The notes beneath the pieces are model-generated. The model was not told the origin of the DNA and ran no database searches. It saw only the letters and a list, made by a program, of their open reading frames with translations. Source: a virus (lineage: Duplodnaviria; Heunggongvirae; Uroviricota; Caudoviricetes). Taken from it: a DNA stretch of 64,000 bases. The DNA is taken from positions 1 to 64,000 of the IMG/VR virus record IMGVR_UViG_3300001765_000263. One strand, given 5' to 3'. Below, piece by piece: positions 10,952 through 64,000 of the stretch; within the stretch, counting starts at the first letter, position 1, and every line of letters begins with the position of its first letter. Made by a program: the position numbers and the translations under genes.

Positions 10952-10996
10952 GATGTACCATAAATATTTGATATCATATATTTATCGGATAGAATA

Positions 10997-16609: not shown

Positions 16610-17298
16610 CATATACAGTAACACCAATTGCGGTTCAAATAGTAGAAGGAACTCCCACATTTAACGAAACATTAACAGTTACGTGTGATGGGGAAAATAC
16701 TGGCACTGCAACGGTAATTGAAGTTACAACAGATGCAACCAGCATAGACTTGAAATACACAAAGAAAGATAACACTGCAACGGTTACTGGATCGGTAATT
16801 AAGAAATCTCTCGCAGAATTTTCAAGAACCTATTCATACGTCACAGACGATAATCAACGTGGTGTAGTTACATCGATATCACAAGTTCCATCGAATGCAT
16901 CCATTTACAGATATACCGCACCAAACCCAATGGGGAATGTAGTTCCAGCAAATATAAAAATTGAATGCACGTCTGGAACTGGTGGTACAAGTACATCAGC
17001 ATGGGCATGTGGAGTAGACACATATGGGGCATTGGGATTTAATGGGGAATCTAAAACAACACTAACCTCCCTTGGGGCATATTCAAAAATAAATCAAGGG
17101 TACGGGCTAACTGCACTAATAAAACCAAATGGCACATTATGGACATGTGGATATAATTATTTCGGTGGATTAGGACTAGGTGACAATATTAATAGATCAT
17201 CACCAACACAAGTTGGAAACTACATGGAAAGAGGTAAGTTGTGCATACAACAGATTATTTGCAATCAAGACAGATGGATCATTGTGGGGTTGTGGTGA
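16606..17298 (+). CDS. RCC1-like repeat protein, 5' segment of a frame-disrupted gene
   Basis: Has an ATG start. RCC1-type blades (WACGVDTYGALGFNGESKT..., GTLWTCGYNYFGGLGLGDNINRSSPTQVG). The frame breaks at 17215-17225, inside a 113-bp repeat. Confidence 0.5.
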   Translation: MTYTVTPIAVQIVEGTPTFNETLTVTCDGENTGTATVIEVTTDATSIDLKYTKKDNTATVTGSVIKKSLAEFSRTYSYVTDDNQRGVVTSISQVPSNASIYRYTAPNPMGNVVPANIKIECTSGTGGTSTSAWACGVDTYGALGFNGESKTTLTSLGAYSKINQGYGLTALIKPNGTLWTCGYNYFGGLGLGDNINRSSPTQVGNYMERGKLCIQQIICNQDRWIIVGLW

Positions 17299-46148: not shown

Positions 46149-46156
46149 TATAAATA
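46149..46156 (+). promoter_or_regulatory. T4-type late-promoter-like box, TATAAATA
   Basis: Exact TATAAATA 29 nt upstream of the ATG at 46185, in a 39-bp intergenic gap. Confidence 0.35.
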
Positions 46157-50800: not shown

Positions 50801-53369
50801 AATACACAGATCATCACCAGTACAAGTTGGATCATTAAGTAATTGGAATAACATTTATGGTCAAACTGCAGGAAGTATATACTTTATGGCAACAAAATCA
50901 GATAACACTTTATGGTTAACAGGTGGTGTTGGGTCTTCAGCAACGTGTACATTGGCACGTTTTGCAGGAAGTATATTTTTGTATTCTCCTGTTCAAGTTG
51001 GGGCATTAAGTGATTGGGATAAAGTCTCTGGTGGCTTTCACACAATGCTTGCTATTAAAACTAATGGCACATTATGGTCATGTGGATATAATAATTATGG
51101 ACAGTTAGGCTTAGACGACGAGATTCATAGATCATCACCAGTACAGGTTGGGACGTCAAGTGATTGGAATTTAGCAAACGCGGGAACATACAGTTCAGCA
51201 GCAATCAAAACCGATGGAACATTGTGGACATGTGGAAGAAACATAGAAGGAGAACTTGGGATTGGATTAGTTCCAAACGTTACGGTTATGTCGTCACCAG
51301 TTCAAGTAGGTACGTCAAGCGATTGGGGAAGTTTTGGTATTAATGGACTGTCAGATAATGGGGGGTTGAGTGCAATAAAATCGAATGGCACTTTATGGGT
51401 AATGGGGTGGAATGTATATGGACAATTGGGTTTAGGCGACATTATTGATAGATCATCACCAGTTCAAGTCGGTACATTGAGTGATTGGAGTAAAATAGCT
51501 ACTACTACTTATAACTTTGCAGCAATTAAAACAACAGGCACATTATGGGCATGCGGGTACAATCCTAAAGGGCAACTAGGGACTAGTAACAAAATACACA
51601 GATCATCACCAGTGCAGGTTGGATCATTAAGTGATTGGAGTACGCTATCTATACATGGTGAATCGTCGTTTTTTATTAAGACTACTGGCACATTGTGGGC
51701 ATGCGGGTATAACCCATATGGGGTATTGGGACATGGAAATACTACTCATAGATCATCACCAGTCCAAGTCGGTACATTGAGTACTTGGACAAGTGTTATA
51801 AACACTACTGGAAGTTCAGTATATGCTATTGGTGGAAATAAACTATATTGTTGGGGGTCAAACAGTGGCGAACTTTGTCTTCCAGATAATATTGATAGAT
51901 CATCACCTGTTCAAGTGGGGTCATTAAGTGATTGGAGTAAATTAGTTGGGCATGGGGCAATCAAAACGGATGGTACATTATGGGGTTGGAGAGATAATAC
52001 TTATGGACAATTGATGACAGGCGACTATGAGAATAAATCATCTCCTGTTCAAATAGGATCATTAAGCGATTGGAGTAAAGCAGTAATTAGGAATGACAAT
52101 ATTATTGGGGTTAAGACTAATGGCACATTGTGGACATGTGGACATAACTTATATGGGCAATTAGGACTTGGTGACACCATTCATAGATCATCTCCTGTAC
52201 AAATTGGATCATTGAGTACTTGGGAAAATATAGAGTCTGGTTGGGGTGCTTATAAAACTGTGGTGGCAAGTAAGACAGATAATACAATATGGACATTTGG
52301 AACTATGCCTGTATTTATGATAATATATGGAAATAAAAGAGACACATTTACCAAAGTTGGGACATTAAGTAATTGGACTGACGCAAAAGTAACTAATGGT
52401 CATTTTTATGGGATAAATGCTGGTAGGTTATTTGTATGTGGGTCAAATTACTATAGTCAATTAGGAACATATTATATCGGTAATATTTCGTCACCAGTAC
52501 AAATTGGATCATTAAGTAATTGGAGTGCATTAGATATTTCTCAAAATGCTGACATTGCAATTGCTAAAAACACAGCAAATAGTTTATATATTAAAACACC
52601 ATTAAATTCAGTAACATTAAATGGTATGCAAAGACCATTTATTAAACATTATGATATAGGAACTACAATCGATAGTATAGTTGGAACTGTTGACATGGTT
52701 GGTTATATTAGTGGAGGCAAACTTTTTACGTATGGCGAAAACTTGCAGGGGTCATTAGGAAATGGCAATACAAATCGTAGGTCATCACCTGTTCAAGTTG
52801 GATCATTAAGTGATTGGAGCAAACTCGACGGGAATAATACTTGCTTACTTGCTATTAAAACAGATGGCACATTATGGGGATGGGGAGGAAATGTCCATGG
52901 AATGCTTGGTATTGGTGTTACAAGTTGGAGGTCGTCACCAACTCAAGTTGGATCATTGAGCGATTGGAGTAAAATTTCTTGTGGTTATTATGGAACTCAT
53001 GCTATTAAAACAGATGGCACATTATGGGGATGGGGAAATAATGGATTTGGTAAATTGGGTTTAGGCGACACCACTTATAGATCATCGCCAGTGCAGGTTG
53101 GGGCATTAAGTGATTGGAGTAAAATTTCTTTTGGTTACAATTGTACATCTGCAATCAAAACAAATGGAACACTATGGATCTCTGGTATTCTACCTATGTC
53201 GGACGAACTAATTTATGTATCATCTCCAACACAAATTGGAACAATGTCAAATTGGGAAGATGTTTCTTGTAATATTAATTTAGTGGCAAGCAACACAGAC
53301 GGTGAGATTTTTGTTGCTGGTCAAAATTCTGGAGTTTTTAGTTTGAGTGGACCATATGGATATTACTAA
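47895..53369 (+). CDS. giant RCC1-like beta-propeller repeat protein (1824 aa; about 30 blades by eye)
   Basis: GTG start with AAGGA 9 nt upstream and no in-frame ATG nearby. Continuous blades with the consensus GTLWxWGxNxYGQLGLGDTIHRSSPxQVGxLSDWSKV. Confidence 0.65.
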   Translation: MTWKVNGVDIDDVFLTEDEISTMKFNYVNGTFVTNVDYSQPVVIGTSNTFKSAKSDKTSTSCIADGNTLNIVSSNYNDTIFSNVNITPNNIFFYSRAKKSSFYSYYRRSHVYSLGLNQYGQLGHGDTISRSSPTQVGASSDWNQIVGDITTYGIKENGTLWSWGKNTYGQLGHGDNIHRSSPTQVGTLSDWNYVNLQLESSFFIKNGTLWACGYNTYGQLGHSDNIHKSIPTQVGGHIYWEKVFCGENSSIGKLKDGSIWSWGNNKYGKLGLGNKIHRSSPVQVGNEKNWNVISCNYNNTMATKNNGTLWAWGDNTQGQFGQGDTIHRSSPTQVGTSSDWSTVSCGNAHFAAIKNNGTLWGCGDNRSNQLGIANTERYSSPIQIGSLSNWKALNCGYNLSLYTDNDTTYFSGNNQNIISVTGTLKDVNYNYSSDKINGKIHSNGIITPSGKLYCFGYGGGIGNMYDTTSSSPYIKEYGQGNFDSFHDNKRYLTAKDNNGGLWVSQFYQVQDYVVGPRTFQDVNINDSIITSVNSEADQVFSYVKSDGTLWTAGTNGYGELGIGQYILHRSSPTQVGSLSDWSYTSTGRNTLFAIKTNGTLWSCGYNYNGQLGVFETSNRSSPCQVGSLSNWKTCKSSQNSVWLTTNNNELFVFGSNQDGLLGIGKTNDYSVVSSPVQVGSSISTYNSGGILASYIKSTDSTVWAWGDTSKLIPGTSTGQLSPILIGSYSKIMHSSSTTDTWLIKSDGTLWACGGNTSGVSGLGDTITRSSPTQVGTLSDWGSSTFPRSMNYCILCIKSNGTLWAWGDNYNGALGLGDTISRSSPTQVGSLSDWSKVASQENATLLVKTNGTLWACGYNQYGVLGLGNTINRSSPVQVGALSDWSKVFVDYHTLSFAIKTNGTLWACGYNYNGQLGLGNKIHRSSPVQVGSLSDWKDAIGNYSASAFIKTDGTLWGCGYGGQGLIGNGSTIHRSSPVQVGSLSNWNNIYGQTAGSIYFMATKSDNTLWLTGGVGSSATCTLARFAGSIFLYSPVQVGALSDWDKVSGGFHTMLAIKTNGTLWSCGYNNYGQLGLDDEIHRSSPVQVGTSSDWNLANAGTYSSAAIKTDGTLWTCGRNIEGELGIGLVPNVTVMSSPVQVGTSSDWGSFGINGLSDNGGLSAIKSNGTLWVMGWNVYGQLGLGDIIDRSSPVQVGTLSDWSKIATTTYNFAAIKTTGTLWACGYNPKGQLGTSNKIHRSSPVQVGSLSDWSTLSIHGESSFFIKTTGTLWACGYNPYGVLGHGNTTHRSSPVQVGTLSTWTSVINTTGSSVYAIGGNKLYCWGSNSGELCLPDNIDRSSPVQVGSLSDWSKLVGHGAIKTDGTLWGWRDNTYGQLMTGDYENKSSPVQIGSLSDWSKAVIRNDNIIGVKTNGTLWTCGHNLYGQLGLGDTIHRSSPVQIGSLSTWENIESGWGAYKTVVASKTDNTIWTFGTMPVFMIIYGNKRDTFTKVGTLSNWTDAKVTNGHFYGINAGRLFVCGSNYYSQLGTYYIGNISSPVQIGSLSNWSALDISQNADIAIAKNTANSLYIKTPLNSVTLNGMQRPFIKHYDIGTTIDSIVGTVDMVGYISGGKLFTYGENLQGSLGNGNTNRRSSPVQVGSLSDWSKLDGNNTCLLAIKTDGTLWGWGGNVHGMLGIGVTSWRSSPTQVGSLSDWSKISCGYYGTHAIKTDGTLWGWGNNGFGKLGLGDTTYRSSPVQVGALSDWSKISFGYNCTSAIKTNGTLWISGILPMSDELIYVSSPTQIGTMSNWEDVSCNINLVASNTDGEIFVAGQNSGVFSLSGPYGYY

Positions 53370-55167
53370 AATTATTATACATAACAGTCAAATTTATGCA
53401 ATTGATTCGATAGGAAAAAACTTATGGGTTTTTAATGCCAATAACATACGATATCAATGGGTATTATTAGACGATGATAATTGGCAAGACATAACAAATG
53501 GAGATTCTCATTTTATTGGACTTAAACAAAATGGCACACTATGGGGATTTGGCGAAAATAATTATGGTCAATTAGGATTAGGACACACTAATAAGATTGA
53601 AAACTTAACAATGCTGTCATCTGCACCAATAACAACAAAATGGAGTAGGGTATCATGTGGAGGAAATTCAACATGTTTAATAGATACTCAAGGGAATGGA
53701 TATGTATGTGGTGAAAACAAGTATGGACAATTTGGAACTGATAATTTTGTAAATCTTTCTACACCAACACAAATTGGTTCTTATAAAATGCAATATGCTT
53801 CTATAAGTAATAGAAATTTAATTTTTATTGATGACAACAACACATTATATGGGTCTGGAAATTATTGGGGGTTAGGTGCTTCTCCAGCAAGTGCTATTAC
53901 ATCAATAAGTTCTCCAGTTCAAATGCAGTCATGTATGGGAATTTCTCAAATTTCCAATGGTGTAAATGGCAATATGTACTATAACATGAATGCAATTGTT
54001 GATCATAGAATTTTATCATGGGGTACTTATCCGCAATTTTTTAATACTGAATATAGTTATAATGAAACAATTGATTATCAAAATGGTTCAGATTGGGATT
54101 ATGTTTCTTCTGTGGGGAATGGAGCATTAGCAGTAAAAACGAATGGTACATTATGGGGGTGTGGGTTTAATGATTGGGGGCAATTGGGAACAGGAGATGC
54201 AACTACAAGAAACTTAATGACTCAAATTGGATTATTAAGCGATTGGACACAAATTTCTGGTGAGTATAAAAATGCTGGTGCTGTAAAATCTAATGGTACA
54301 TTATGGGTATGGGGAAATAATGCTAACGGACAATTAGGACTTGGTGATATTAGAAATAGATCATCTCCAACTCAAGTCGGTACATCGAGTGATTGGTCTT
54401 CATTAACATTTGGTGTTAGAACAACAGCATATATAAAAAATGATAACACATTATGGATGTGTGGATATAATACCACTGGAGAATTGGGGTTAAGTGATAT
54501 TATCTATAGATCATCTCCTGTACAAGTAGGTGGGTTAAGTGATTGGAGTAAGATTAGGTGTGGATATTTTCATTCTGTTTCTATAAAAACTGACAACACA
54601 TTATGGTCATGGGGGTATTGTTATTATGGACAATTGGGAGTTAGTAACAATGCTAATAGATCGTCACCTGTTCAAGTTGGAGCATTGAGTGATTGGAGTA
54701 AGGTTGCTTGTGGTTCTTATCACACTATTGCAATTAAAACAAATAATACATTATGGTCATGGGGTCAAAATACCTATGGCCAATCAGGTCTTGGTAATGT
54801 TGTTCATAGATCATCTCCAACTCAAGTTGGCACATTGAGTGATTGGAGTGATATTGCTGGCGGCGACAGATGTTCTTTTTTTCTTAAAAATACTGGTGAT
54901 TTATGGGCATCAGGAACAAATACAGCAGGAGTTCTTTCAAATACAGTTTCTACTAACACATTTATAGAACTCAAAAAGAATGTTAAGCATGCTGAAACTG
55001 CCAATGGAAATACAATGCACTATACATATGACGATGAGTTGTTTTTTTGTGGGAATAATGTATATACTGTTGTTGGTTCAAAATCTTTAGTTCCAGTATC
55101 AAGAGGAATTTTAAGGAATTTGGAATTTGAATTAACTCCAACCCTAGCTGTACAGAAACGATTATGA
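53356..55167 (+). CDS. RCC1-like repeat protein
   Basis: ATG at 53356 (the track's GTG at 53347 is also possible). Overlaps the end of the preceding gene. Blades throughout. Confidence 0.6.
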   Translation: MDITKIIIHNSQIYAIDSIGKNLWVFNANNIRYQWVLLDDDNWQDITNGDSHFIGLKQNGTLWGFGENNYGQLGLGHTNKIENLTMLSSAPITTKWSRVSCGGNSTCLIDTQGNGYVCGENKYGQFGTDNFVNLSTPTQIGSYKMQYASISNRNLIFIDDNNTLYGSGNYWGLGASPASAITSISSPVQMQSCMGISQISNGVNGNMYYNMNAIVDHRILSWGTYPQFFNTEYSYNETIDYQNGSDWDYVSSVGNGALAVKTNGTLWGCGFNDWGQLGTGDATTRNLMTQIGLLSDWTQISGEYKNAGAVKSNGTLWVWGNNANGQLGLGDIRNRSSPTQVGTSSDWSSLTFGVRTTAYIKNDNTLWMCGYNTTGELGLSDIIYRSSPVQVGGLSDWSKIRCGYFHSVSIKTDNTLWSWGYCYYGQLGVSNNANRSSPVQVGALSDWSKVACGSYHTIAIKTNNTLWSWGQNTYGQSGLGNVVHRSSPTQVGTLSDWSDIAGGDRCSFFLKNTGDLWASGTNTAGVLSNTVSTNTFIELKKNVKHAETANGNTMHYTYDDELFFCGNNVYTVVGSKSLVPVSRGILRNLEFELTPTLAVQKRL

Positions 55168-56546
55168 CATATAAAGACAAATATAAAAAAATAACAAAAA
55201 ATTTAGCTCCATATAATTATCAAGCAAATGATTATGCATTTTTGAATAGTGTCGGAAGAAAAAATGTTTTGTTTGGTAGAAATCTTAATACCATGAACGT
55301 TTTTCATCCTAACAGGTCTGGTTCTAACAGTAAAACTTTTGTTAGTTCTATTTTAGAAATAACAGACATTGATGACATGGATATAATAGAAGTTACTAAT
55401 TCTGCAGTATATTTTTCTTATAATGGGGATACTTACATATCCTCATTAACTAGCGATTTAGTATATACATCTTTTTTTACAACTAAAGAAGAAAATTTAA
55501 TAAAACATCACTTTCCTGTAAAGTTGGTTGCAATTGGTGTTTACGATGGGATATTGTTAGATGTAAATGATAGATTATTTTATAATACATCTCCCTCAAC
55601 ATTTAATAGATTGATACAACATAAAAGCAGTCTCAACACGTTTTCTATACATGAAGAGATTACCTATGTCACAGCAAATACAGTTGTAAATAACCTTGGA
55701 TTTATAAAATCTGGAACATTATGGACATGCGGATATAATCTCTACGGACAACTAGGGTTGGGGGATATTGTTGGAAGATCATCTTTTGTACAAGTTGGTA
55801 CTTTAAGTGATTGGAAAACTGTCAACATTGAATCCCATCATTCAATGGGGACAAAGACTAATGGTACATTGTGGACATGGGGATATAACACCAATGGAGA
55901 ATTGGGATTAGGCGACAAAATTCATAGATCATCACCAGTTCAAGTTGGAGCATTGAGTGATTGGAGTAATGTGTCTAGCGGTGGTAATTTTAAAGCAGGA
56001 ATAAAAACTACTGGTACATTGTGGGCATGGGGAAGAAATGATTATGGACAACTAGGATTAGGTAATCTTATTAGTAGATCATCTCCAACTCAAGTTGGAA
56101 CATTGAGTGATTGGAGTACATGTGCGATTTCTGACGCAAGGCTTTTATCTGTTAAAACCAACGGTACATTATGGGCATGCGGGTATAATGTATATGGGTG
56201 TTTAGGATTAGGCGACACTATATCTAGATCGTCACCAGTTCAAGTTGGATCATTAAGTGATTGGAGTAAGGTTGATTGTGCAGACGGAAGTTTTACTGCA
56301 CAAAGAACGAATGGCACATTATGGTCTTGTGGAAAGAACGATGTTGCTCAATTAGGTCATGGTGATACTATTCATAGATCATCTCCAACTCAAGTAGGCA
56401 CATTGAGTGATTGGAGTATATTTACTATGGGGAAGACCTGTTTAGCTGCGGTAAAAACAGATGGTACTTTATATGTATCACGGAATTTTAAATGTTTAGA
56501 AGTAGACGAATATCTTTTACCTTTTAAAAGAAAAATGGATTATTAA
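55164..56546 (+). CDS. RCC1-like repeat protein (460 aa)
   Basis: ATG overlaps the upstream TGA (ATGA). The first about 180 aa are unique, followed by blades. Confidence 0.6.
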   Translation: MTYKDKYKKITKNLAPYNYQANDYAFLNSVGRKNVLFGRNLNTMNVFHPNRSGSNSKTFVSSILEITDIDDMDIIEVTNSAVYFSYNGDTYISSLTSDLVYTSFFTTKEENLIKHHFPVKLVAIGVYDGILLDVNDRLFYNTSPSTFNRLIQHKSSLNTFSIHEEITYVTANTVVNNLGFIKSGTLWTCGYNLYGQLGLGDIVGRSSFVQVGTLSDWKTVNIESHHSMGTKTNGTLWTWGYNTNGELGLGDKIHRSSPVQVGALSDWSNVSSGGNFKAGIKTTGTLWAWGRNDYGQLGLGNLISRSSPTQVGTLSDWSTCAISDARLLSVKTNGTLWACGYNVYGCLGLGDTISRSSPVQVGSLSDWSKVDCADGSFTAQRTNGTLWSCGKNDVAQLGHGDTIHRSSPTQVGTLSDWSIFTMGKTCLAAVKTDGTLYVSRNFKCLEVDEYLLPFKRKMDY

Positions 56547-56547
56547 A

Positions 56548-59500
56548 ATGATAATAGAAGACATTGCAACTAATATTGGTTCAGTAACCCAAACAATATT
56601 AAATGGTAAACTATTTACATTAGGTAATACAACATATGCAGCATATGGGGGCAAAAAATACACATACCTTAACTTACTAGATTCGAGTGCAAACTTTACT
56701 TCTTTACATGCTCATAGTGATATAATCTTTGCATTGACCAGTAATAATTGGTTATGGGGATTTGGGAATAATGCATATGGACAATTGGGACTAGGCGACA
56801 CCACTTATAGATCATCGCCAGTGCAGGTTGGGGCATTAAGTGATTGGAGTAAGGTTTCCCCTGCTAAATTTAGTACAATAGCGATTAAAACAAATGGTAC
56901 ATTGTGGAGTTGGGGCAATAACACCAATGGACAATTGGGACAAAGCAATAATATTTCTAGATCATCACCAACTCAAGTTGGGGCATTAAGTGATTGGAGT
57001 AAGGTTGCTTGTGGATATTATACAACTCAGGCTATTAAAACAGATGGCACATTATGGGGATGGGGAGGAAATAATTATGGACATCTAGGACTAGGCGACA
57101 CTATTATTAGATCATCGCCAGTGCAGGTTGGGGCATTAAGTGATTGGAGTAAGGTTGCTTGTGGTTCTTATCATACTATTGCAATTAAAACAGATGGTAC
57201 TTTGTGGTCTTGTGGATATAATAATACTGGTCAATTGGGACATGGAAATAGAATTCATAGATCATCACCTATTCAAGTAGGATCGTTAAGCGATTGGAAT
57301 ATTATTGGATGCAGTACATCCAGTTCATATTTTTATAATAATAGTGATGTGTTATATGCGTGTGGGACAACTAATAATCCTGGTCAAACAAATGTACAAA
57401 GATCATTACCTACACAATTGGGGTCATTTAAATCAGCATTGAGACCAATGTTAGATATTAAAAGCAATACCACACAGATTGTTCCAATGTTCATTTTAAA
57501 CAATATTGGAGAAAATAAAAAAACATTAACCTCTTGGAATGGATACCTCGGTGACGGAAATTCAAGCACTAACACACAAATTTATATAGAAGAGAATATG
57601 AGTTGGAGAGATGCAACTCGATTCAGTTCATCAGATATTGTTACAATAGATTCATCTGGAAGATTATGGAAAACTAATCTTTGGACACAAACAGACGTTT
57701 CTTCTCCTGTACAACTTGGTTCATTATCAAATTGGGAAAAATTGGGAAAAACCAATCAAGAATTAATTTCAACCAAAGATGTGTCTTACGTTAGTAACAA
57801 TTTAGGAGAATTATATTATTTTGGAAAAAACATTGATTATGCAGATAAATCAACTGCTTCTTATTTTACTGAACCATTTCATATAGATCCAGATGGTAAT
57901 GAAAGAACATCATATAGATTCATTATAAAAAACGATAATACATTATGGGGGTGTGGATATAACGACTCCAACTATACTCTTTCTATTATAGATGCTGCAC
58001 ATAGATCTTCCCCAACACAAGTTGGCTCATTAAGTGATTGGATGAAAATAGATGAATCATTCTCTTCAGTTTTCTCTGTTAAAACTGATGGAACATTATG
58101 GACGTGGGGTGATAATTTTTATGGTCAATTAGGATTGGGTGATACAATCCATAGATCATCACCAGTACAAGTCGGCAATTCACTGAATTGGATTAAAATA
58201 AGTGGTGGATTTGCAATCAACACTGATAGAACTTTATGGAGTCTAGGAGGGGAAAATAGTCAAGGGCAATTGGGACTTGGTGACACTATATCTAGATCAT
58301 CGCCAACACAAGTTGGATCATTGAATGACTGGCATCATATTAGTAGTAATAGTCTTCAGACGTTTGCAGTGTCCATAAAAGGAACATTATGGACGTGGGG
58401 GTACAATTTCATTGGTGTTCTTGGTGTTGGTGATACAATCCATAGATCATCTCCAACTCAAGTTGGATCATTGAGCGATTGGTTACACTGTAAAATATAT
58501 TCTGATGATAGTTCAATAAGCACACTTATATTAAAATATAATGGCACATTATGGTTATGGGGTGGTAATGGATATGGGAACTTAGGATTGGGTGATACAA
58601 TCCATAGATCATCTCCAACTCAAGTTGGATCATTGAGCGATTGGTGTACAATTTCTTCTTCGTCTGCCGTTAAAACCAATGGCACATTATGGACATGGGG
58701 TTTTAATACATATGGTGGATTGGGTTTAGGTGATACAATCCACAGATCATCTCCAACTCAAGTTGGATCATTGAGCGATTGGAAAGAAATTTTAAGTTTT
58801 GATAAAATATGCAAACAAAATGGCACATTGTGGGTATGCGGATATAATGGTACTGGTCAATTAGGATTGGGTGATACAATCCATAGATCATCACCAACAC
58901 AAGTTGGAACATTAAATAATTGGAATTTCCCTAAAGTAAAAGAAATACAAATTTTTGGTGATGACAATATAACGATCAGGGAGGATAACTCCGTGTTTTT
59001 TACAGGGTCAGATTTCCATACAACATTTTCTGAGGAAGTTCCACTTACAACACAAAAAAGATTTTATGAAATTGACGACAATGTAATTACGTGCCAAGGG
59101 ATTACGTACACAAAAAGTGATAATTCGATGTATATATGCCCGTCTTACGGTTTTAATTTTGTTGGATATTTTTTTCCATACTACGACAGAAATTATAAAA
59201 TTTCTAATACATTAAAATGGAAAAAAATGATTCATAGGAGTGGTAACTGTTCTGTGGCAATTGATAGTGACGATAAAATATATCAAAGTGGAGTACAAAG
59301 TTCTGGACTAGCAACTCCAACTGGATCATACACAAAAATAGGAAATGATACATGGAGTGATGTTGGTATTACAAATGATTATAGTGTCATATCTGCTGTT
59401 AAAACGAACGGAACGTTGTGGTCATGGGGACTTGGGATTTATGGGTGTTTAGGATTAGGCGACACTATATCTAGATCGTCACCAGTTCAAGTTGGAACAT

Positions 59501-60363
59501 TAAGTGATTGGAGTAAGGTTGTTGGTTCTAGAAGAAGTTTTGCATTTTTAAAAACGAATGGCACATTATGGACATGTGGGTATAACTTAACCGGTTGTTT
59601 GGGATTGGGGTTAGGTGACACTGCATCTAGATCATCTCCAACTCAAGTTGGAACATTGAGTGATTGGAGTAAAATTAGTACAAAAGGGGAGTATGATTTT
59701 GCTTTTTACAATGCATCAAATACTTATGTTACTGGTGAGTTAAAAACATATTTTGGTGTGTCTGGTATCGGTACGCTTTCACCTGTCGGGTTATATTCTG
59801 ATATAGATGGAAATTTAGCGTTAAAACCAAATGGAGAATTATATTATCTTAATGATGTTTCTCCAATAAGAATAGGATCAAGTTCTAATTGGGTTAAAAT
59901 ATCAGATGGTCTTGCAGTAAACAGTGATAAAAAAGTTTTTAGTTATACTACTTATTCAAAGAAAGCAAAGAATAAAAAATGGAATAAACAAGCAAAATCG
60001 ATTAGTGTTGGTGGATTAGACACACCGTTTTTATGTACAGTAACAACAGACAGCACATTGTGGAGTTGGGGGTATAATCAATATGGAACGTTAGGAGTTG
60101 GGGATCAAGTCCATAGATCATCTCCAACTCAAGTCGGCACATTGAGTGATTGGAGTAAAGTTGCTTGTGGCACTCAACATGCTGCTGCTCTCAAAACAGA
60201 TGGCACTTTATGGGCATGGGGATATAATAGTTATGGACAACTATCTAGTACTGGTCTTTCTTCTAACTCGACTGCTGCATCTCCTGCACAAATGGGAAGT
60301 TTGTCTATATGGCAAAATGTATGGTGTATGGATGCAGCAATTATAGGCGAGGTAATCAAATGA
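56548..60363 (+). CDS. giant RCC1-like repeat protein (1271 aa)
   Basis: ATG 2 nt after the previous stop. About 20 blades. Confidence 0.65.
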   Translation: MIIEDIATNIGSVTQTILNGKLFTLGNTTYAAYGGKKYTYLNLLDSSANFTSLHAHSDIIFALTSNNWLWGFGNNAYGQLGLGDTTYRSSPVQVGALSDWSKVSPAKFSTIAIKTNGTLWSWGNNTNGQLGQSNNISRSSPTQVGALSDWSKVACGYYTTQAIKTDGTLWGWGGNNYGHLGLGDTIIRSSPVQVGALSDWSKVACGSYHTIAIKTDGTLWSCGYNNTGQLGHGNRIHRSSPIQVGSLSDWNIIGCSTSSSYFYNNSDVLYACGTTNNPGQTNVQRSLPTQLGSFKSALRPMLDIKSNTTQIVPMFILNNIGENKKTLTSWNGYLGDGNSSTNTQIYIEENMSWRDATRFSSSDIVTIDSSGRLWKTNLWTQTDVSSPVQLGSLSNWEKLGKTNQELISTKDVSYVSNNLGELYYFGKNIDYADKSTASYFTEPFHIDPDGNERTSYRFIIKNDNTLWGCGYNDSNYTLSIIDAAHRSSPTQVGSLSDWMKIDESFSSVFSVKTDGTLWTWGDNFYGQLGLGDTIHRSSPVQVGNSLNWIKISGGFAINTDRTLWSLGGENSQGQLGLGDTISRSSPTQVGSLNDWHHISSNSLQTFAVSIKGTLWTWGYNFIGVLGVGDTIHRSSPTQVGSLSDWLHCKIYSDDSSISTLILKYNGTLWLWGGNGYGNLGLGDTIHRSSPTQVGSLSDWCTISSSSAVKTNGTLWTWGFNTYGGLGLGDTIHRSSPTQVGSLSDWKEILSFDKICKQNGTLWVCGYNGTGQLGLGDTIHRSSPTQVGTLNNWNFPKVKEIQIFGDDNITIREDNSVFFTGSDFHTTFSEEVPLTTQKRFYEIDDNVITCQGITYTKSDNSMYICPSYGFNFVGYFFPYYDRNYKISNTLKWKKMIHRSGNCSVAIDSDDKIYQSGVQSSGLATPTGSYTKIGNDTWSDVGITNDYSVISAVKTNGTLWSWGLGIYGCLGLGDTISRSSPVQVGTLSDWSKVVGSRRSFAFLKTNGTLWTCGYNLTGCLGLGLGDTASRSSPTQVGTLSDWSKISTKGEYDFAFYNASNTYVTGELKTYFGVSGIGTLSPVGLYSDIDGNLALKPNGELYYLNDVSPIRIGSSSNWVKISDGLAVNSDKKVFSYTTYSKKAKNKKWNKQAKSISVGGLDTPFLCTVTTDSTLWSWGYNQYGTLGVGDQVHRSSPTQVGTLSDWSKVACGTQHAAALKTDGTLWAWGYNSYGQLSSTGLSSNSTAASPAQMGSLSIWQNVWCMDAAIIGEVIK

Positions 60364-62438
60364 CATACAAAGGAATTAACTTCGTCAATAAGAGTATATT
60401 TGAGAAAGAAGGGTATTTAGTAGCATCGAGTAGATATGATTCTATTGAGTTACCAAGATTAGTTCCAGATATAATTGATCATTCTTATGGTCCTCTCAGT
60501 GAGATTTACATAAAAACGAATGGTACAATGTGGGCATGTGGATATAATGGACCGTGGGGAAAGTTAGGAATTGGTACAGCAGGGGATTATACAGAACGAT
60601 ATTCTTCTCCTATTCAAGTTGGGACATTAAGTACATGGGAAAAGATAACCGTTAGTTGGGGTGCTTCTTTTGCAATCAAAACCAACGGCACATTATGGTC
60701 ATGGGGGGATAATGAATATGGAAGTTTATGTCATGGTGACACAGTTCATAGATCATCACCAACACAGGTTGGATCGTTAAGTACGTGGTCTAGAGTGTGG
60801 AATGAATTTGGAAATTTTATTGCAACAAAAACGAATGGTACATTATGGGTGTGTGGAGATAATTCTGATGGGAAATTAGGTTTAGGAAACACTATTAATA
60901 GGTCGTCCCCAGTTCAAGTTGGGGCATTAAGTGACTGGAGTCAGATATCAGGTTCCGGTGGTAAAGTAGTTGCTATTAAAACAACTGGCACGTTATGGAC
61001 ATGGGGCAAGAATGATGGTTATAATAATTTAGGTCTTGGTGATACTATTAATAGATCATCCCCTACACAGGTTGGAACATTGAGCAACTGGAGTGCAATA
61101 GGGTTGAATGGAGATTTTACAATAATGTTAAAATCGACTGGCACATTATGGTTTTGTGGATATGCTTTTAATAATGTTTTTTATAGTGAAAATAAATCAT
61201 CCCCTGTTCAGGTTGGTACATCAAGTGATTGGAGTCAAATATATGTGACTAATATTAATTCTATTCTTGGTATTAAAACGAATGGGACATTATGGAGAAT
61301 TGGAGAAGACCCCATTTTTTATGGGGAAGTTACAGATAATAATGGTGTTCAGACTGGAACATTAAGTGATTGGGGAAGTTTTAAAGGAAGTCATAGTAAT
61401 ACGTTGATTAAAAAGACAAACAATACTTTTTGGAATTATGATTTTGATGGAGTATTTCACCCAATAAATGATAAAGAGGGTAATATCACTGCTTTATTGT
61501 CAAGAAAATATAACACAAGCAATATTAATATTTCTGATATGTATCGTCTTCAAGAAAGTTCTTTTTTAATATTTGAGGATACAAGAATATTGGTTGGAGG
61601 AGTAAATTCTTACGGACAATTAGGATTAGGTCATACCAGTTTTGTTACCACTCCAGTACAGTTAGGGGAAATAAACGAATGGAAATTTGGGTATTTTTCT
61701 TCACAGTTTTTGATGTCTGTCTTTTTAAAAATGAACGGCACTTTATGGACTTGTGGTTATAACAATTTTGGACAATTGGGACTTGGTGACAACCTTGCTA
61801 GATCATCACCAGTACAGGTTGGGACATTAAGTGACTGGAGTAAAATTGGTGAAACATATGTAACTAGAACAGACAATTCTGTATGGGTATGGGGTTGGAA
61901 TATTGACGGAAAATTGGGACTTGGTGACACTATTGATAGATTATCACCAGTACAGTTAGGAATAAAAAACGAATGGGATAAAATAGTATCTAACGGACGT
62001 ATGTCAGTGTTACTCAAAACAAATGGCAATTTATGGACATGTGGTTATAACAATTTTGGACAATTGGGACTTGGTGACACCATTCATAGATCATCACCTG
62101 TACAAGTTGGAACATTAAGTGACTGGAGTAAAATTAGTGGAGCTGGAGTGAGCATATTTGCATTGAAAACTAACAATACATTATGGGCATGTGGATATAA
62201 TTATAATGGGCATTTAGGATTGGGAGACACTATCCATAGATCATCTCCTACACAAGTTGGAACATTAAGTGATTGGTATGATACATACGGCAACTATGCT
62301 GTAAAAACCGATGGTACGTTGTGGTGTATTAACAATTCTTTAGTGTCAAGTCCAATACAAGTTGGGAAGTCTTTTAATTGGGTCAAACCAATCAGTACTG
62401 GAACTATATGGGGGCAATATATCGGATTAGCGAAGTGA
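60360..62438 (+). CDS. RCC1-like repeat protein (about 692 aa)
   Basis: ATG at 60360 overlaps the upstream TGA (ATGA), with GAGGT 8 nt upstream. The track's 60309 start would overlap the previous gene by 54 nt. Confidence 0.6.
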   Translation: MTYKGINFVNKSIFEKEGYLVASSRYDSIELPRLVPDIIDHSYGPLSEIYIKTNGTMWACGYNGPWGKLGIGTAGDYTERYSSPIQVGTLSTWEKITVSWGASFAIKTNGTLWSWGDNEYGSLCHGDTVHRSSPTQVGSLSTWSRVWNEFGNFIATKTNGTLWVCGDNSDGKLGLGNTINRSSPVQVGALSDWSQISGSGGKVVAIKTTGTLWTWGKNDGYNNLGLGDTINRSSPTQVGTLSNWSAIGLNGDFTIMLKSTGTLWFCGYAFNNVFYSENKSSPVQVGTSSDWSQIYVTNINSILGIKTNGTLWRIGEDPIFYGEVTDNNGVQTGTLSDWGSFKGSHSNTLIKKTNNTFWNYDFDGVFHPINDKEGNITALLSRKYNTSNINISDMYRLQESSFLIFEDTRILVGGVNSYGQLGLGHTSFVTTPVQLGEINEWKFGYFSSQFLMSVFLKMNGTLWTCGYNNFGQLGLGDNLARSSPVQVGTLSDWSKIGETYVTRTDNSVWVWGWNIDGKLGLGDTIDRLSPVQLGIKNEWDKIVSNGRMSVLLKTNGNLWTCGYNNFGQLGLGDTIHRSSPVQVGTLSDWSKISGAGVSIFALKTNNTLWACGYNYNGHLGLGDTIHRSSPTQVGTLSDWYDTYGNYAVKTDGTLWCINNSLVSSPIQVGKSFNWVKPISTGTIWGQYIGLAK

Positions 62439-62446
62439 TATAAATA
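62439..62446 (+). promoter_or_regulatory. T4-type late-promoter-like box, TATAAATA
   Basis: Exact TATAAATA immediately after the stop of the last RCC1 gene, 39 nt upstream of the ATG at 62485. Confidence 0.3.
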
Positions 62447-62484
62447 ACCATGTGATTGACGTTTAACTTTACTTTGGAGACATT

Positions 62485-63264
62485 ATGCAAAAGATACATT
62501 TCATATCGGGTCTGCCCCGTTCAGGCACTACTTTGTTGTCATCTATTCTTGGACAAAACCCAAGATTCTCATCATCGATTTCTGGTCCAGTAGCACGATT
62601 CACACGTGCCATCATTGAAGAGTCACAATCCCAAGGTGGATACAGATTCCAATGTCCTGCAGAAAAACGCAAAGAACTTATTCACAATGTCATTGATACC
62701 TACTACAACAAATCGAATGAAGTAGTGTTTGATACTAATCGTGGTTGGACATATATGATGCCACTGTTGGCAGATCTTTACCCAAAGGCAAAAGTTGTTT
62801 GTTGCATTCGTTCTATTCCATGGATTCTGGATTCGTTTGAACAGTTATTCGCAAAGAATCCATATGATGTGCCACTCATGTTTCCTCAAGGTGCAGGTGT
62901 GTCAGTGTATTCAAGAACCTCATATTTACTTTCCCAAGATGCCTTTATTGGGTTTGCATATAACGGAGTCAAGCAAGCAATGTTTGGTCCTGCTAAACAA
63001 AATCTGCATATCATTCAATACGATCAGTTGGCAAAGAATCCAAAGGGTGTGGTGAAACGTCTGTATGAATTTATTGGCGAACCTTGGTATGAGCATGACT
63101 TCAATAATGTTGATGTGAATTATGACGAGTTTGATACTGATATGAATATCAAGGGTCTGCATCATGTGCGTAAAAAGGTTGAGTTCAAAGAACGTCCTAC
63201 CATTCTTCCACCTGATGTTTTCAATGAATATGAAAAACTTGACTTTTGGAAACATATGAGATGA
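62485..63264 (+). CDS. sulfotransferase-family protein
   Basis: GLPRSGTTLL is a PAPS 5'-phosphosulfate-binding P-loop (PKSGTT type). The size and layout fit the cytosolic/carbohydrate sulfotransferase fold. GGAGA RBS. Confidence 0.6.
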   Translation: MQKIHFISGLPRSGTTLLSSILGQNPRFSSSISGPVARFTRAIIEESQSQGGYRFQCPAEKRKELIHNVIDTYYNKSNEVVFDTNRGWTYMMPLLADLYPKAKVVCCIRSIPWILDSFEQLFAKNPYDVPLMFPQGAGVSVYSRTSYLLSQDAFIGFAYNGVKQAMFGPAKQNLHIIQYDQLAKNPKGVVKRLYEFIGEPWYEHDFNNVDVNYDEFDTDMNIKGLHHVRKKVEFKERPTILPPDVFNEYEKLDFWKHMR

Positions 63265-64000
63265 ATCGGTTGGAGCTAATAAAAAATGCTCTAGCCATAG
63301 GAAATCATCAGTATGCAAATAAAGTTTTAACAGTATTAGAGCAGGAAAATCATCCAGAGGTTCATCTATTGCGTGAAGCATATGATGAACTTGTGGGTGA
63401 TGTATATTGGGAATCTGGAGAACTCTTGAAAGCGTTTTCCATTTACCAAAACAAAAGTCAGCAACAATCCAAACAGTTCTTGGGTTATGACCATGGAGTA
63501 ATAGAAAATCATACTACACGGTCATTGAGTTATAACCCTGCGTTTTTGTTCGACTACAAAAAACATGGATTCGAGGATGACAAATATTGGAATGGTCAAG
63601 ATCTAACAGGGAAGACCTTATTGATTCTGACTGAAGCAGGGTACGGAGACGAGATAATTTTTCTGAGTTTTATCCGACCACTTTTGGAACAGAATTGCAA
63701 GATTGTTGTTTTGTGTTCTGAAGGATTGCAATCCATAGTCGAGCGTAGTTTTAGTATTGAAACTTCATCAGTCTCAAATGTTAAACCACATGATTATTGG
63801 ATTGACATTTTTAAACTGCCAGTCATTTTGGGTATCAGTAAACCAGATATCACACCCTATATTTGTTCTAGTCCAAATTTAGCCTATTACTATGACTTAT
63901 CACCTCTGAATAGTCTAAAAATAGGCTTGCGCTGGCATGGTGATACTCCTAAAGCAGTGATTAAACCACTAAGTTATCTTGTTGATGCATTCAAACCATT
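63261..64000 (+). CDS. TPR-like N-terminus followed by a glycosyltransferase family 9 (heptosyltransferase)-like domain. Partial; runs off the window. Not in the ORF track.
   Basis: ATG at 63261 overlaps the sulfotransferase TGA (ATGA). ...GKTLLILTEAGYGDEIIFLSFIRPLLEQNCKIVVLCSEGL resembles the GT9 N-terminal motif (IRxxALGDxL...P.L..LK). Confidence 0.4.
   Translation, partial: MNRLELIKNALAIGNHQYANKVLTVLEQENHPEVHLLREAYDELVGDVYWESGELLKAFSIYQNKSQQQSKQFLGYDHGVIENHTTRSLSYNPAFLFDYKKHGFEDDKYWNGQDLTGKTLLILTEAGYGDEIIFLSFIRPLLEQNCKIVVLCSEGLQSIVERSFSIETSSVSNVKPHDYWIDIFKLPVILGISKPDITPYICSSPNLAYYYDLSPLNSLKIGLRWHGDTPKAVIKPLSYLVDAFKP

What the first reader, a model, noticed from the sequence alone, without database searches (positions are those of the whole stretch)
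62439..64000. Sulfotransferase plus TPR/GT9-like glycosyltransferase cassette directly after the RCC1 array, behind a TATAAATA box
A PAPS-type sulfotransferase (GLPRSGTTLL P-loop) is start/stop-coupled to a gene with a TPR-like N-terminus and a heptosyltransferase-like (GT family 9) core (GKTLLILTEAGYGDEIIF...P.L..NCKIVVLC). Both follow an exact late-promoter-like TATAAATA at the end of the fibre/RCC1 region. This suggests a late-expressed glycan-modifying unit. It might sulfate or glycosylate host surface polysaccharide (receptor modification or exclusion) or modify virion proteins. The radical SAM gene (44766) and the AspH-like hydroxylase (3871) may belong with it, which would make this window unusually rich in putative post-translational or glycan-modifying enzymes.
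Basis: partly seen in the sequence, partly recalled or inferred. Interest (0 to 1): 0.6.

Follow-up and report, generated by a model that had tools for sequence, protein, structure and literature searches.

The report
Phage sulfotransferase plus fibre-linked glycosyltransferase cassette
The end of this window holds the first two genes of a late-promoter-driven sugar- and sulfate-adding cassette that many uncultured T4-like phages, and one cultured cyanophage, keep right next to their RCC1-repeat tail-fibre genes. It most likely decorates those fibre proteins, which nobody has yet shown for any phage.

Summary

The exact TATAAATA at 62439 is where DNA homology to the related phage contig begins. 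It recurs upstream of the sulfotransferase in other phage lineages.

The main new result is context. In 8 phage lineages sampled, including cultured Synechococcus phage S-SRM01, RCC1-repeat fibre genes, this sulfotransferase and a TPR-GT9-like enzyme sit together, usually with methyltransferases and GT2/GT4 enzymes. One contig fuses the sulfotransferase to the GT9-like domain. Bdellovibrio-like genomes place RCC1 proteins directly beside the same GT family.

I infer a cytoplasmic, late-expressed system that glycosylates the RCC1 fibre proteins and then sulfates or methylates the glycan (about 0.45). Host-surface remodelling is the main rival. I found no evidence linking the radical SAM or AspH-like genes to the cassette. 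It is a new variant of a known kind.

The parts
53347..62438 (+). Array of four consecutive RCC1-repeat (beta-propeller) fibre-module ORFs: 53347-55167, 55164-56546, 56548-60363 and 60309-62438. Inferred partner or acceptor of the cassette.
   Evidence: Pfam RCC1 1e-45 to 1e-125. They lie downstream of the baseplate genes. The blade motif [RK]SSPxQVG occurs 4-15 times per protein.
62439..62446 (+). TATAAATA, a T4-type late-promoter-like box 46 nt before the ORF-A start.
   Evidence: Exact match. DNA homology to L001 begins exactly here. Exact TATAAATA also lies 33-42 nt upstream of the orthologous sulfotransferase in L001 and L018, and AATAAATA in L019.
62476..62479 (+). GGAG ribosome-binding site, 5 nt before the ATG.
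   Evidence: Read directly from the sequence. Conserved as TTTGGAGA in L001.
62485..63264 (+). ORF-A: 259-aa soluble PAPS-type sulfotransferase.
   Evidence: Sulfotransfer_3 9.2e-18, Sulfotransfer_1 1.8e-10. phrog_27463 3.9e-48. 89% identical to the L001 orthologue, with 107 synonymous against 29 non-synonymous codon differences. No TM segment.
62509..62538 (+). 5'-phosphosulfate-binding P-loop, GLPRSGTTLL (aa 9-18).
   Evidence: Invariant in 24 family members. Aligns to the TPST P-loop GVPRSGTTL.
62809..62835 (+). Candidate 3'-phosphate-binding motif, R109-x7-S117 (RSIPWILDS).
   Evidence: R109, D116 and S117 are invariant in the family alignment. Assigning this as the 3'-PB motif rests on general knowledge of sulfotransferases.
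63261..64000 (+). ORF-B: 5' two-thirds of a helical-N-terminus plus GT9-like GT-B glycosyltransferase, truncated by the window end. Its start overlaps the ORF-A stop (ATGA).
63645..63650 (+). G129-D130 of ORF-B, the family-invariant GD motif after the first beta-strand (position of the GT9 catalytic Asp).
   Evidence: G36/D37 are the only invariant pair besides W128 in alignment A2. The profile aligns lGDei to LGDVI of the GT9 structure 3TOV.

Best explanation
The finding is the promoter-proximal start of a late-transcribed, cytoplasmic glycan-building cassette in a novel T4-like myovirus.

Shown:
- ORF-A is a PAPS-dependent sulfotransferase.
- ORF-B is a soluble GT-B glycosyltransferase of the GT9-like 'TPR-GT9' family. 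It keeps the catalytic GD motif and every family-conserved residue that can be seen in the window.
- The two genes are translationally coupled and sit behind a conserved TATAAATA.
- The same two enzyme families are kept next to RCC1-repeat fibre genes in many phage lineages, and are fused in one.

Inferred mechanism:
- Late in infection the helical/TPR N-terminus of the GT docks on newly made RCC1-repeat fibre proteins.
- The GT9-like domain transfers a sugar from a nucleotide-sugar donor to Ser/Thr of the repeated blades. This parallels TibC/AAH heptosylating repeat serines of autotransporters, and FlmG/OGT using TPRs to select protein acceptors.
- The sulfotransferase then O-sulfates that sugar.
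- Further enzymes beyond the window end (methyltransferases, GT2/GT4, a second TPR-GT9-like paralogue, as in the syntenic contig L001) extend and methylate the glycan.
- The product would be anionic, methylated glycans on the distal fibre propellers, changing adsorption, stability or recognition of the virion.
For: Enzyme identities:
- ORF-A.
- ORF-B.
- Both are soluble, with no signal peptide or TM segment.

Coupling and promoter.

The cassette continues in the syntenic contig L001, in this order: ST, P0001, MT23, GT2, MT11, TPR-GT9-like 493 aa, MT24/O-MT, two unknowns, GT2, then tail sheath and tube.

Conserved triad of RCC1 genes, ST and TPR-GT9-like gene:
- window and L001
- the L006 group
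- P0177 contigs
- L018, L019, L020
- cultured phage S-SRM01, where the GT (gp338) and the ST (gp345) are interleaved with RCC1 genes gp335/337/344

Rosetta-stone fusion: a complete ST joined to a helical linker and a GT9-like domain in one 570-aa ORF (L022).

Linkage outside phage tail modules:
- Bdellovibrionota loci L103 and L108 put a Tat-signal RCC1 protein, with the same RSSPVQVG blade motif, 1-6 nt from a TPR-GT9-like gene.
- In L106 the GT is chromosomal, next to clpP/clpX.
- MAG locus L017 puts the ST between a secreted fibre-like protein and a Tat-signal RCC1 protein, with no GT nearby.

Other support:
- The best solved structural relatives include a protein O-glycosyltransferase, TibC.
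- No flippase, polymerase or polyprenyl-phosphate transferase family appears in the Pfam annotation of the cassettes.
- Late, structural-module placement fits a virion function.
- Precedent for TPR + GT-B cytoplasmic protein O-glycosyltransferases: PMC7591256.
- Earlier prediction that sulfotransferase operons modify co-encoded phage-tail-like proteins: PMC2938197.
Against: - No direct evidence exists that any RCC1 protein is glycosylated or sulfated.
- In phages, adjacency to fibre genes could simply reflect a permissive insertion hot-spot at the end of the tail module.
- GT9 enzymes classically act on LPS cores. GT2, FkbM/RfbT-like methyltransferases and a nucleotide-sugar epimerase are typical of polysaccharide pathways.
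- Only 2 of 8 Bdellovibrionota loci show the RCC1 adjacency.
- The candidate acceptor motif RSSP is not universal: S-SRM01 has RSTP and L017 lacks it.
- ORF-B and P0001 form a divergent short paralogue clade (27-32% identical to the conserved long clade). No TPR HMM detects their N-termini.
- ORF-B's C-terminal, donor-binding half lies outside the window.
- Late timing is inferred from a promoter motif only.
Confidence: 0.45

Rival explanations
1. Host-envelope remodelling. The cassette builds or decorates a host surface polysaccharide (LPS, O-antigen, EPS) at the cytoplasmic face of the membrane during infection. This would mask receptors so that progeny or competing phages do not adsorb to infected cells or debris. 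It is the usual interpretation of glycosyltransferase clusters in large cyanomyoviruses.
For: - The GT9 fold is that of LPS heptosyltransferases.
- Related cassettes carry GT2/GT4 enzymes, an FkbM/RfbT-like O-antigen-type methyltransferase and a nucleotide-sugar epimerase.
- Large cyanomyoviruses are known to carry many cell-wall synthesis and modification genes, interpreted this way (PMC12801897).
- The NCBIfam hit to the Nod-factor sulfotransferase NoeE covers the P-loop only.
Against: - No Wzx/Wzy/WecA-type or other membrane component is annotated in any cassette.
- Both enzymes are soluble.
- The helical/TPR N-terminus suggests a protein acceptor.
- The cassette sits in the late structural module behind a late-type promoter. 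In T4, exclusion functions are typically early (my own knowledge).
- Linkage to RCC1 proteins persists in non-phage genomes.
- The ST is fused to the GT, not to polysaccharide export genes.
Confidence: 0.25
2. Direct protein sulfation. The sulfotransferase sulfates amino-acid side chains (Tyr, Ser/Thr or a hydroxylated residue) of the RCC1 or fibre proteins itself, independently of any glycan. The GT9-like enzyme would then act separately or as a targeting subunit.
For: - The family profile's seven best PDB matches are all protein-tyrosine sulfotransferases (TPST1 9.7e-8, TPST2 2e-4).
- In MAG locus L017 the ST lies between a secreted fibre-like protein and a Tat-signal RCC1 protein with no GT nearby.
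- Iyer et al. predicted hydroxylase + sulfotransferase operons that modify tail-collar or collagen-like proteins (PMC2938197).
- The window and S-SRM01 each encode an oxygenase, though of different families.
Against: - The TPST matches cover only the PAPS-binding P-loop and a C-terminal segment.
- Where TPST has its catalytic-Glu segment (RCGEETR), this family has an invariant SISGP. The catalytic residue assignment in TPST is from my own knowledge.
- Sulfotransfer_3 also contains carbohydrate sulfotransferases that have few solved structures, so 'closest in PDB' is biased.
- Fusion and translational coupling with a glycosyltransferase point more simply to a sugar acceptor.
Confidence: 0.15
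3. The cassette makes something unrelated to fibres or envelope, such as a sulfated/methylated glycoside metabolite or a DNA hypermodification. Or ORF-B is a degenerate, non-catalytic paralogue.
For: - ORF-B and P0001 evolve fast (43% identity against 89% for the adjacent ST).
- P0001 replaces the common DTSxAH motif with ETSVSV.
- Phage GT and MT enzymes can modify DNA (10.1101/2023.12.21.572611, listed).
Against: - ORF-B and P0001 keep every invariant or nearly invariant family residue (G-D, E, R, D, Y, G, W, T, T, W, Q, W).
- The position occupied by H is variable in other members too.
- No nucleotide-metabolism genes are nearby.
- The placement next to fibre genes is conserved.
Confidence: 0.07

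Closest known systems
TibC / AAH (BAHT) autotransporter protein O-heptosyltransferases
   Different: 10-13% identity. I saw no conserved Cys cluster that could correspond to TibC's iron-binding motif in alignment A2. No evidence for a dodecamer. The N-terminal helical/TPR module is absent from TibC. Donor sugar unknown.
LPS heptosyltransferases WaaC/WaaF and CAZy family GT9 (Pfam PF01075)
   Different: ORF-B and P0001 themselves give no PF01075 hit. Where Pfam hits occur they cover only profile positions about 160-218. The extra N-terminal helical-repeat domain and the non-LPS gene context also differ.
FlmG (Caulobacter flagellin O-glycosyltransferase) and OGT-type TPR + GT-B enzymes
   Same: Same architecture and logic: an N-terminal TPR binds the protein acceptor, a C-terminal GT-B domain transfers the sugar in the cytoplasm, and the target is a repetitive extracellular filament protein (PMC7591256; 10.1101/2023.12.03.569772).
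PAPS-dependent sulfotransferases of Pfam Sulfotransfer_3, including TPST1/2
   Same: HMM above threshold, an invariant 5'-PSB P-loop and an R-x7-S motif. TPSTs are the nearest solved sequences.
   Different: The TPST catalytic-Glu region is not conserved. Substrate unknown. This is a compact 257-260-aa stand-alone family, very conserved (53-89% identity across 120 listed homologues).
Phage- and virus-encoded virion glycosylation systems (mycobacteriophage capsid/tail-tube glycosylation, Freeman et al. 2023; chlorovirus PBCV-1 capsid glycan enzymes such as the GT-GT-MT protein A064R)
   Same: Virus-encoded GT and methyltransferase genes beside structural genes. Related cassettes contain a GT4-MT-GT2 tri-domain protein. 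The comparison with these systems rests on my own knowledge; Freeman et al. is cited as ref. 61 of PMC12801897 but was not readable here.
   Different: The enzyme families differ. The sulfotransferase and the TPR-GT9-like enzyme are, to my knowledge, not part of those systems. The proposed target is fibre RCC1 propellers rather than capsid or tail tube. Nothing has been demonstrated experimentally here.
Cell-wall synthesis/modification (CWSM, 'LPS') gene clusters of large cyanomyoviruses (P-SSM2, S-SCSM1, S-SCSM2R)
   Same: Clusters of GTs and sugar-modifying enzymes in T4-like aquatic phages (PMC12801897).
   Different: Those clusters include nucleotide-sugar and KDO synthesis genes and are read as host-surface modifiers. 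None is reported with a sulfotransferase (0 occurrences of the word in that paper) or with RCC1 linkage.
Hydroxylase + sulfotransferase operons with phage tail-collar or collagen-like substrates predicted by Iyer et al. 2010
   Same: A comparative-genomics prediction that bacterial sulfotransferases modify co-encoded fibre-like proteins (PMC2938197).
   Different: [quoted passage not shown] Whether it is the same sulfotransferase family was not tested.

Membership tests
PAPS-dependent sulfotransferase (Pfam Sulfotransfer_3 / Sulfotransfer_1) | Profile HMM match above the curated threshold | tested here: met
   PF13469 65.7 bits (cut-off 27) and PF00685 41.1 bits (cut-off 22), covering aa 6-207.
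PAPS-dependent sulfotransferase (Pfam Sulfotransfer_3 / Sulfotransfer_1) | 5'-phosphosulfate-binding P-loop (PxxGTT-type) | tested here: met
   GLPRSGTTLL at aa 9-18, invariant in 24 homologues. It aligns to the TPST P-loop.
PAPS-dependent sulfotransferase (Pfam Sulfotransfer_3 / Sulfotransfer_1) | 3'-phosphate-binding Arg...Ser motif | tested here: inconclusive
   R109 and S117 (spacing 8) are invariant, which fits the motif. No structure or structural alignment was made to confirm the register.
Protein-tyrosine sulfotransferase (TPST) | Homology across the catalytic core, including the catalytic Glu after the P-loop helix | tested here: not met
   Profile matches to TPST1/2 (9.7e-8 to 3e-4) are carried by the P-loop and aa 146-203. 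Where TPST has RCGEETR, this family has an invariant SISGP. The role of that Glu is from my own knowledge.
CAZy GT9 / Pfam Glyco_transf_9 | Profile HMM match above threshold | tested here: not met
   No PF01075 hit for ORF-B or for P0001, even at E up to 10. Relatives do hit: P0144 62 bits, P0006 55, P0104 36, P0110 30, and 17 of 24 domain sequences at E <= 0.01. The segment those hits cover lies beyond the window end in ORF-B.
CAZy GT9 / Pfam Glyco_transf_9 | GT-B fold most similar to GT9 structures | tested here: met
   [not shown]
CAZy GT9 / Pfam Glyco_transf_9 | Conserved Asp after the first beta-strand (catalytic base, D13 in WaaC) | tested here: met
   GD is invariant in A2 and present in ORF-B as G129-D130. 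The profile aligns it with LGDVI of 3TOV. Equating it with WaaC D13 rests on my own knowledge.
CAZy GT9 / Pfam Glyco_transf_9 | ADP-heptose donor and lipid A-Kdo/LPS acceptor | not testable with these tools
   No biochemical data. The donor-binding half of ORF-B lies outside the window.
BAHT (TibC/AAH) protein heptosyltransferases | Iron-binding Cys motif and dodecameric assembly | tested here: not met
   No conserved Cys cluster among the invariant or nearly invariant columns of A2. The oligomeric state was not tested.
TPR + GT-B protein O-glycosyltransferases (FlmG / OGT type architecture) | N-terminal TPR repeats followed by a C-terminal GT-B domain | tested here: inconclusive
   Long-clade paralogues give weak TPR hits (TPR_2 2.7e-6 in L006, 7e-4 in L001). 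Bacterial relatives have strong TPR arrays. For ORF-B and P0001 there are only predicted helical hairpins and no TPR HMM hit.
TPR + GT-B protein O-glycosyltransferases (FlmG / OGT type architecture) | Sequence homology to FlmG or GT41 OGT | not tested
   [not shown]
T4-type late promoter | TATAAATA box a short distance upstream of a late gene, in a T4-like phage | tested here: met
   Exact motif 46 nt before the ATG. Conserved in L001 and L018, with one mismatch in L019. The window carries T4-like baseplate genes. Promoter activity itself cannot be tested here.

The most novel reading that the evidence does not exclude
RCC1-repeat beta-propellers are the dedicated acceptors of a previously unrecognised cytoplasmic protein-glycosylation system, consisting of a TPR-GT9-like transferase and a compact sulfotransferase. 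The system would be shared between T4-like or jumbo aquatic phages and Bdellovibrionota. In phages it would coat the distal fibre propellers with sulfated, methylated O-glycans, possibly on the Ser of the blade motif [RK]SSPxQVG. That would be the first sulfated virion glycoprotein in a bacteriophage and would give a function to the huge family of TPR-GT9-like proteins.
Probability: 0.3. Interest if true: 0.8.

Novelty: new variant of a known kind. Interest (0 to 1): 0.55.

Why it matters
- Post-translational glycosylation of phage virions is known from very few systems, and to my knowledge sulfation from none.
- RCC1-repeat proteins are common but functionally unexplained components of large phages. 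For example, phAPEC6 has eleven, with function unknown (PMC7247149).
- The TPR-GT9-like domain has more than 17,000 cluster representatives, and I found no characterised member.
- A conserved, fused and translationally coupled ST/GT pair tied to RCC1 genes gives a concrete hypothesis for all three.
- The hypothesis is directly testable, because a cultured phage (S-SRM01) carries the module.
- Charged glycans on receptor-binding fibres would bear on host range, adsorption and particle stability in aquatic phages.

Tried and rejected
- Megablast of 60300-64000 and tblastn of ORF-B against 50,697 phage records found no match. The window is not a known phage.
- An exact 44-mer from the window end was absent from IMG/VR. 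Scans of IMG/VR and JGI metagenomes with the ORF-B/P0001 alignment returned only the one L001 contig under three names. The sequence downstream of 64000 could not be recovered.
- Pfam, NCBIfam and PHROGs on ORF-B and P0001 gave nothing significant.
- The two-sequence profile against PDB gave noise.
- AF2 with the two-sequence alignment failed for the GT domain (pLDDT 38). It was rescued with a 24-sequence domain alignment.
It was repeated with the phage long-clade alignment A4.
- I tested whether the high ST identity to L001 reflects recent transfer. It does not: 78% nt identity and 107 synonymous against 29 non-synonymous codon changes indicate long divergence under purifying selection.
- I tested whether sulfotransferase domains are common inside the giant TPR-GT9-like proteins. 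Only 1 of 152 carries one, so the fusion is rare.
- I tested the RSSP blade motif as a marker of cassette-linked RCC1 proteins. It is suggestive (phages and Bdellovibrionota) but not universal.
- gp6-based relatives in IMG/VR are at most 64% identical and mostly below 40%. This gave no close genome for calibrating divergence.
- Literature searches found no paper treating this module.
Full report
**What the window is.** The window carries a T4-like baseplate and tail-fibre module. PHROG matches cover the tail tube cap, gp5-like hub/lysozyme, and gp6- and gp8-like wedge proteins. GC is about 36%. The gp6-like protein is only about 35% identical to cyano-, pelagi- and methylophilales myophages. 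In IMG/VR its best relative is 64% identical on a small contig, and most others are below 40%. The last 3.7 kb has no nucleotide match among known phages. This is therefore a novel T4-like lineage with an unknown host.

**Checking the observation.**
- The quoted features are all present.
- Four consecutive RCC1-repeat ORFs fill 53347-62438 (Pfam RCC1, 1e-45 to 1e-125).
- The last RCC1 ORF ends at TGA 62436-62438, and TATAAATA follows at 62439-62446.
- GGAG at 62476-62479 precedes the ATG of ORF-A (62485-63264, 259 aa).
- ORF-A's TGA overlaps the ATG of ORF-B (ATGA, 63261-63264). ORF-B runs off the window after 246 codons.

**ORF-A is a sulfotransferase.**
- It passes Pfam Sulfotransfer_3 (9.2e-18) and Sulfotransfer_1 (1.8e-10). 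It matches an uncharacterised phage family, phrog_27463 (3.9e-48).
- The P-loop GLPRSGTTLL and an R109-x7-S117 pair are invariant in 24 homologues.
- The family is compact (257-260 aa), abundant and unusually conserved. There are 1,947 hits, and the 120 listed are 52-89% identical.
- Its nearest solved relatives by profile are the protein-tyrosine sulfotransferases (TPST1 9.7e-8). The match rests on the PAPS-binding elements, and the TPST catalytic-Glu segment is not conserved. The acceptor therefore remains open.

**ORF-B is a GT9-like glycosyltransferase, shown indirectly.**
- ORF-B fails every direct family search.
- Among 5.8 billion proteins it has one close homologue, P0001 (380 aa, 43% identity).
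- A profile of the two sequences, scored against 1.84 billion representatives, finds 17,627 proteins at E <= 0.001. The matched region is profile positions about 137-380. It often occurs in 3-7 copies inside giant TPR proteins.
- Several of these pass the Pfam Glyco_transf_9 threshold. Of 24 trimmed domain sequences, 17 hit PF01075 at E <= 0.01.
- The domain profile's best PDB sequence match is the GT9 structure 3TOV (E 0.0085). That alignment places the family's invariant GD on LGDVI. Weak, correctly registered matches to WaaF and WaaC follow.
- AlphaFold with the 24-sequence alignment gives a confident model of P0001's domain (pLDDT 90.3).
- In the viral structure library the best matches are uncultured-phage proteins, some named GT9 or Aah/TibC, and the S-SRM01 'TPR protein'.
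- ORF-B retains every family-conserved residue in the part visible in the window, including G129-D130. P0001 retains those of the C-terminal half.
- Both ORF-A and ORF-B lack hydrophobic segments.
- The GT9-like call is upheld, with two qualifications: it rests on an orthologue's model, and ORF-B's donor-binding half lies beyond the window.
- The 'TPR-like' N-terminus is supported only as predicted helical hairpins.

**The promoter.**
- TATAAATA is not over-represented in the window as a whole (8 against 8.2 expected).
- Three of the eight copies lie in the 6.4% of sequence outside ORFs of 120 aa or more, each shortly before a + strand start (P about 0.011).
- BLASTN homology between the window and the related contig L001 begins exactly at this motif. 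It runs through ORF-A into the first 75 nt of ORF-B.
- An exact TATAAATA lies 33-42 nt upstream of the orthologous sulfotransferase in L001 and in the independent locus L018. AATAAATA lies there in L019.
- Together with the T4-like gene content, this makes a late promoter the best reading. Its activity is untested.

**The cassette is larger than the finding.** P0001 lies on a 76.6-kb phage contig (L001). The gene order there is:
- RCC1 giant protein
- 67-aa ORF
- 727-aa protein
- sulfotransferase (89% identical to ORF-A)
- P0001
- Methyltransf_23
- GT2
- Methyltransf_11
- a 493-aa TPR-GT9-like paralogue (220 bits to the domain profile)
- Methyltransf_24 / O-methyltransferase
- two unknowns
- GT2
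- tail sheath and tail tube

The window therefore most likely shows only the first two genes of a cassette of about ten. The sulfotransferase is under strong purifying selection (78% nt, 89% aa; 107 synonymous against 29 non-synonymous codon differences). ORF-B and P0001 diverge fast, and they form a short clade only 27-32% identical to the conserved 'long' clade of 442-493 aa.

**Conserved neighbourhood.** Every phage locus I sampled through sulfotransferase homologues of 55% identity or more has RCC1-repeat genes, then the sulfotransferase, then a long-clade TPR-GT9-like gene. Methyltransferases and a 918-936-aa GT4-MT-GT2 fusion protein usually accompany them.
- The L006 group, including a 372-kb contig.
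- Contigs carrying P0177.
- L018, L019 (a 363-kb contig with gp32 and a RecA/UvsX-like gene) and L020.
- The cultured freshwater cyanomyovirus S-SRM01, with a more distant sulfotransferase (28% identity). Its order is tail fibre, RCC1 gp335, RCC1 gp337, 'TPR protein' gp338 (1.6e-58 to the GT9-like profile), 2OG-Fe(II) oxygenase, four hypotheticals, RCC1 gp344, sulfotransferase gp345, one hypothetical, GT gp347, one hypothetical, epimerase gp349. Its genome paper does not discuss these genes.
- More distant sulfotransferases (47-48% identity, L012-L014) lack RCC1 and the GT within 10 kb.

**Linkage beyond simple adjacency in phages.**
- On contig L022 a 570-aa ORF fuses a complete sulfotransferase to a helical linker and a GT9-like domain.
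- The closest cellular homologues of the long clade (30-40% identity) lie mostly in Bdellovibrionota genomes. One sits beside clpP/clpX in Bdellovibrio sp. HCB2-146.
- In two of those eight loci the gene 1-6 nt away encodes an RCC1 protein. It has a twin-arginine signal and the same blade motif (RSSPVQVG..L..W) as the phage arrays.
- In MAG locus L017 the sulfotransferase (55% identity) lies between a signal-peptide, fibre-like 1,525-aa protein and a Tat-signal RCC1 protein.

**Interpretation.**
- Shown: the identities of the two enzymes, their coupling, the conserved promoter motif, and the recurrent linkage to each other and to RCC1 genes.
- Inferred: the RCC1 fibre proteins are the acceptors.
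- The proposed logic follows TibC/AAH and FlmG/OGT. A soluble GT-B enzyme uses a helical-repeat domain to bind a repetitive protein and glycosylates it in the cytoplasm (PMC7591256). The coupled or fused sulfotransferase then sulfates the sugar, and the methyltransferases and GT2/GT4 enzymes elaborate it.
- Tat signals on the bacterial RCC1 partners fit modification of a folded protein before export.
- Iyer et al. earlier predicted that bacterial sulfotransferase operons modify co-encoded tail-collar or collagen-like proteins (PMC2938197).
- The main rival is host-surface polysaccharide remodelling, the standard view of GT clusters in big cyanomyoviruses (PMC12801897). GT2, RfbT-like methyltransferase and epimerase genes fit it. 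The absence of any membrane, flippase or polymerase component, the late structural context and the RCC1 linkage outside phages count against it.
- Direct protein sulfation (TPST-like) remains possible, especially given L017.

**The radical SAM and AspH-like genes.** Both are real: Radical_SAM 5e-14 and Asp_Arg_Hydrox 1.7e-5. They lie 16 kb and 58 kb from the cassette, and the Pfam annotations of the related cassettes examined list neither family. Only S-SRM01 has an oxygenase inside its cassette, and it belongs to a different family. I found no evidence that they belong with this unit.

**Verdict.** The finding is real and correctly read in outline. It is a new variant of a known kind (virus-encoded glycan-modifying cassettes). 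It has an unusual and, as far as I could find, undescribed feature: a conserved sulfotransferase/TPR-GT9-like pair tied to RCC1-repeat fibre genes. The hypothesis can be tested in a cultured phage.

Noticed in passing
L022:1679-3391 (+): A 570-aa ORF with a TTG start fuses a complete sulfotransferase (P-loop GLPRSGSTVL) to a helical linker and a GT9-like domain. The database gene call (P0002, 533 aa) starts later and misses the P-loop.
   Followed up: yes
L103:1336-3957 and L108:5875-8519 (Bdellovibrionota MAGs); L106 (Bdellovibrio sp. HCB2-146): Tat-signal RCC1-repeat proteins, with the same RSSPVQVG blade motif as the phage arrays, lie 1-6 nt from TPR-GT9-like genes. In L106 the GT is next to clpP/clpX, so it is chromosomal rather than prophage.
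   Followed up: partly
L017:3348-9992 (MAG GCA_031370005.1, 259-kb contig): A sulfotransferase 55% identical to ORF-A sits between a 1,525-aa signal-peptide protein with phage-fibre-like motifs and a Tat-signal RCC1 protein. No glycosyltransferase is nearby, and toxin-antitoxin and Abi genes flank the region.
   Followed up: partly
L021 (Synechococcus phage S-SRM01, NC_070963.1, 220827-236287): This cultured phage carries the whole module: tail fibre, three RCC1 genes, TPR-GT9-like gp338, 2OG-Fe(II) oxygenase gp339, sulfotransferase gp345, GT gp347 and epimerase gp349. Its GC (35.6%) is close to the window's. The genome paper does not mention these genes.
   Followed up: partly
L109 (contig binned as an Acidimicrobiaceae MAG, 135 kb): The locus has two tandem TPR-GT9-like genes and a sulfotransferase at only 34% GC. 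It may be a phage contig mis-binned into an actinobacterial MAG.
   Followed up: no
window 60309-60363: The last two RCC1 ORFs overlap by 55 nt as listed (56548-60363 and 60309-62438). The true start of the second may be further downstream.
   Followed up: no
window 4437-4444 and 46149-46156: Two further exact TATAAATA boxes lie in short intergenic gaps. One is 101 nt before the 4538 ORF, just after the AspH-like gene. The other is 36 nt before the 46185 ORF, just after the radical SAM gene stop. ATAAATA variants lie at 10960 and 19525.
   Followed up: partly
window 17180-18934 and 38607-40583: RCC1 repeats also occur inside the baseplate region and fused to a phrog_358-type structural protein. 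RCC1 propellers are therefore used in at least six proteins of this tail.
   Followed up: no
Protein library, e.g. P0004 (3,114 aa) and P0005 (3,140 aa): The TPR-GT9-like domain occurs in 3-7 copies per protein in giant TPR proteins of 1,300-3,100 aa. I found no characterised member of this very large family.
   Followed up: no
L006, L018, L020 and the P0177 contigs: A conserved 918-936-aa tri-domain protein (GT4/Glycos_transf_1, Methyltransf_23, GT2) follows the sulfotransferase in several lineages. A small methyltransferase of about 180 aa is also conserved (Methyltransf_11, 4.4e-5).
   Followed up: partly
L006 (372-kb contig) and L019 (363-kb contig): The module also occurs on contigs of jumbo-phage size. 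L019 encodes gp32 and a RecA/UvsX-like protein just downstream of the cassette.
   Followed up: no
[not shown]
   Followed up: no
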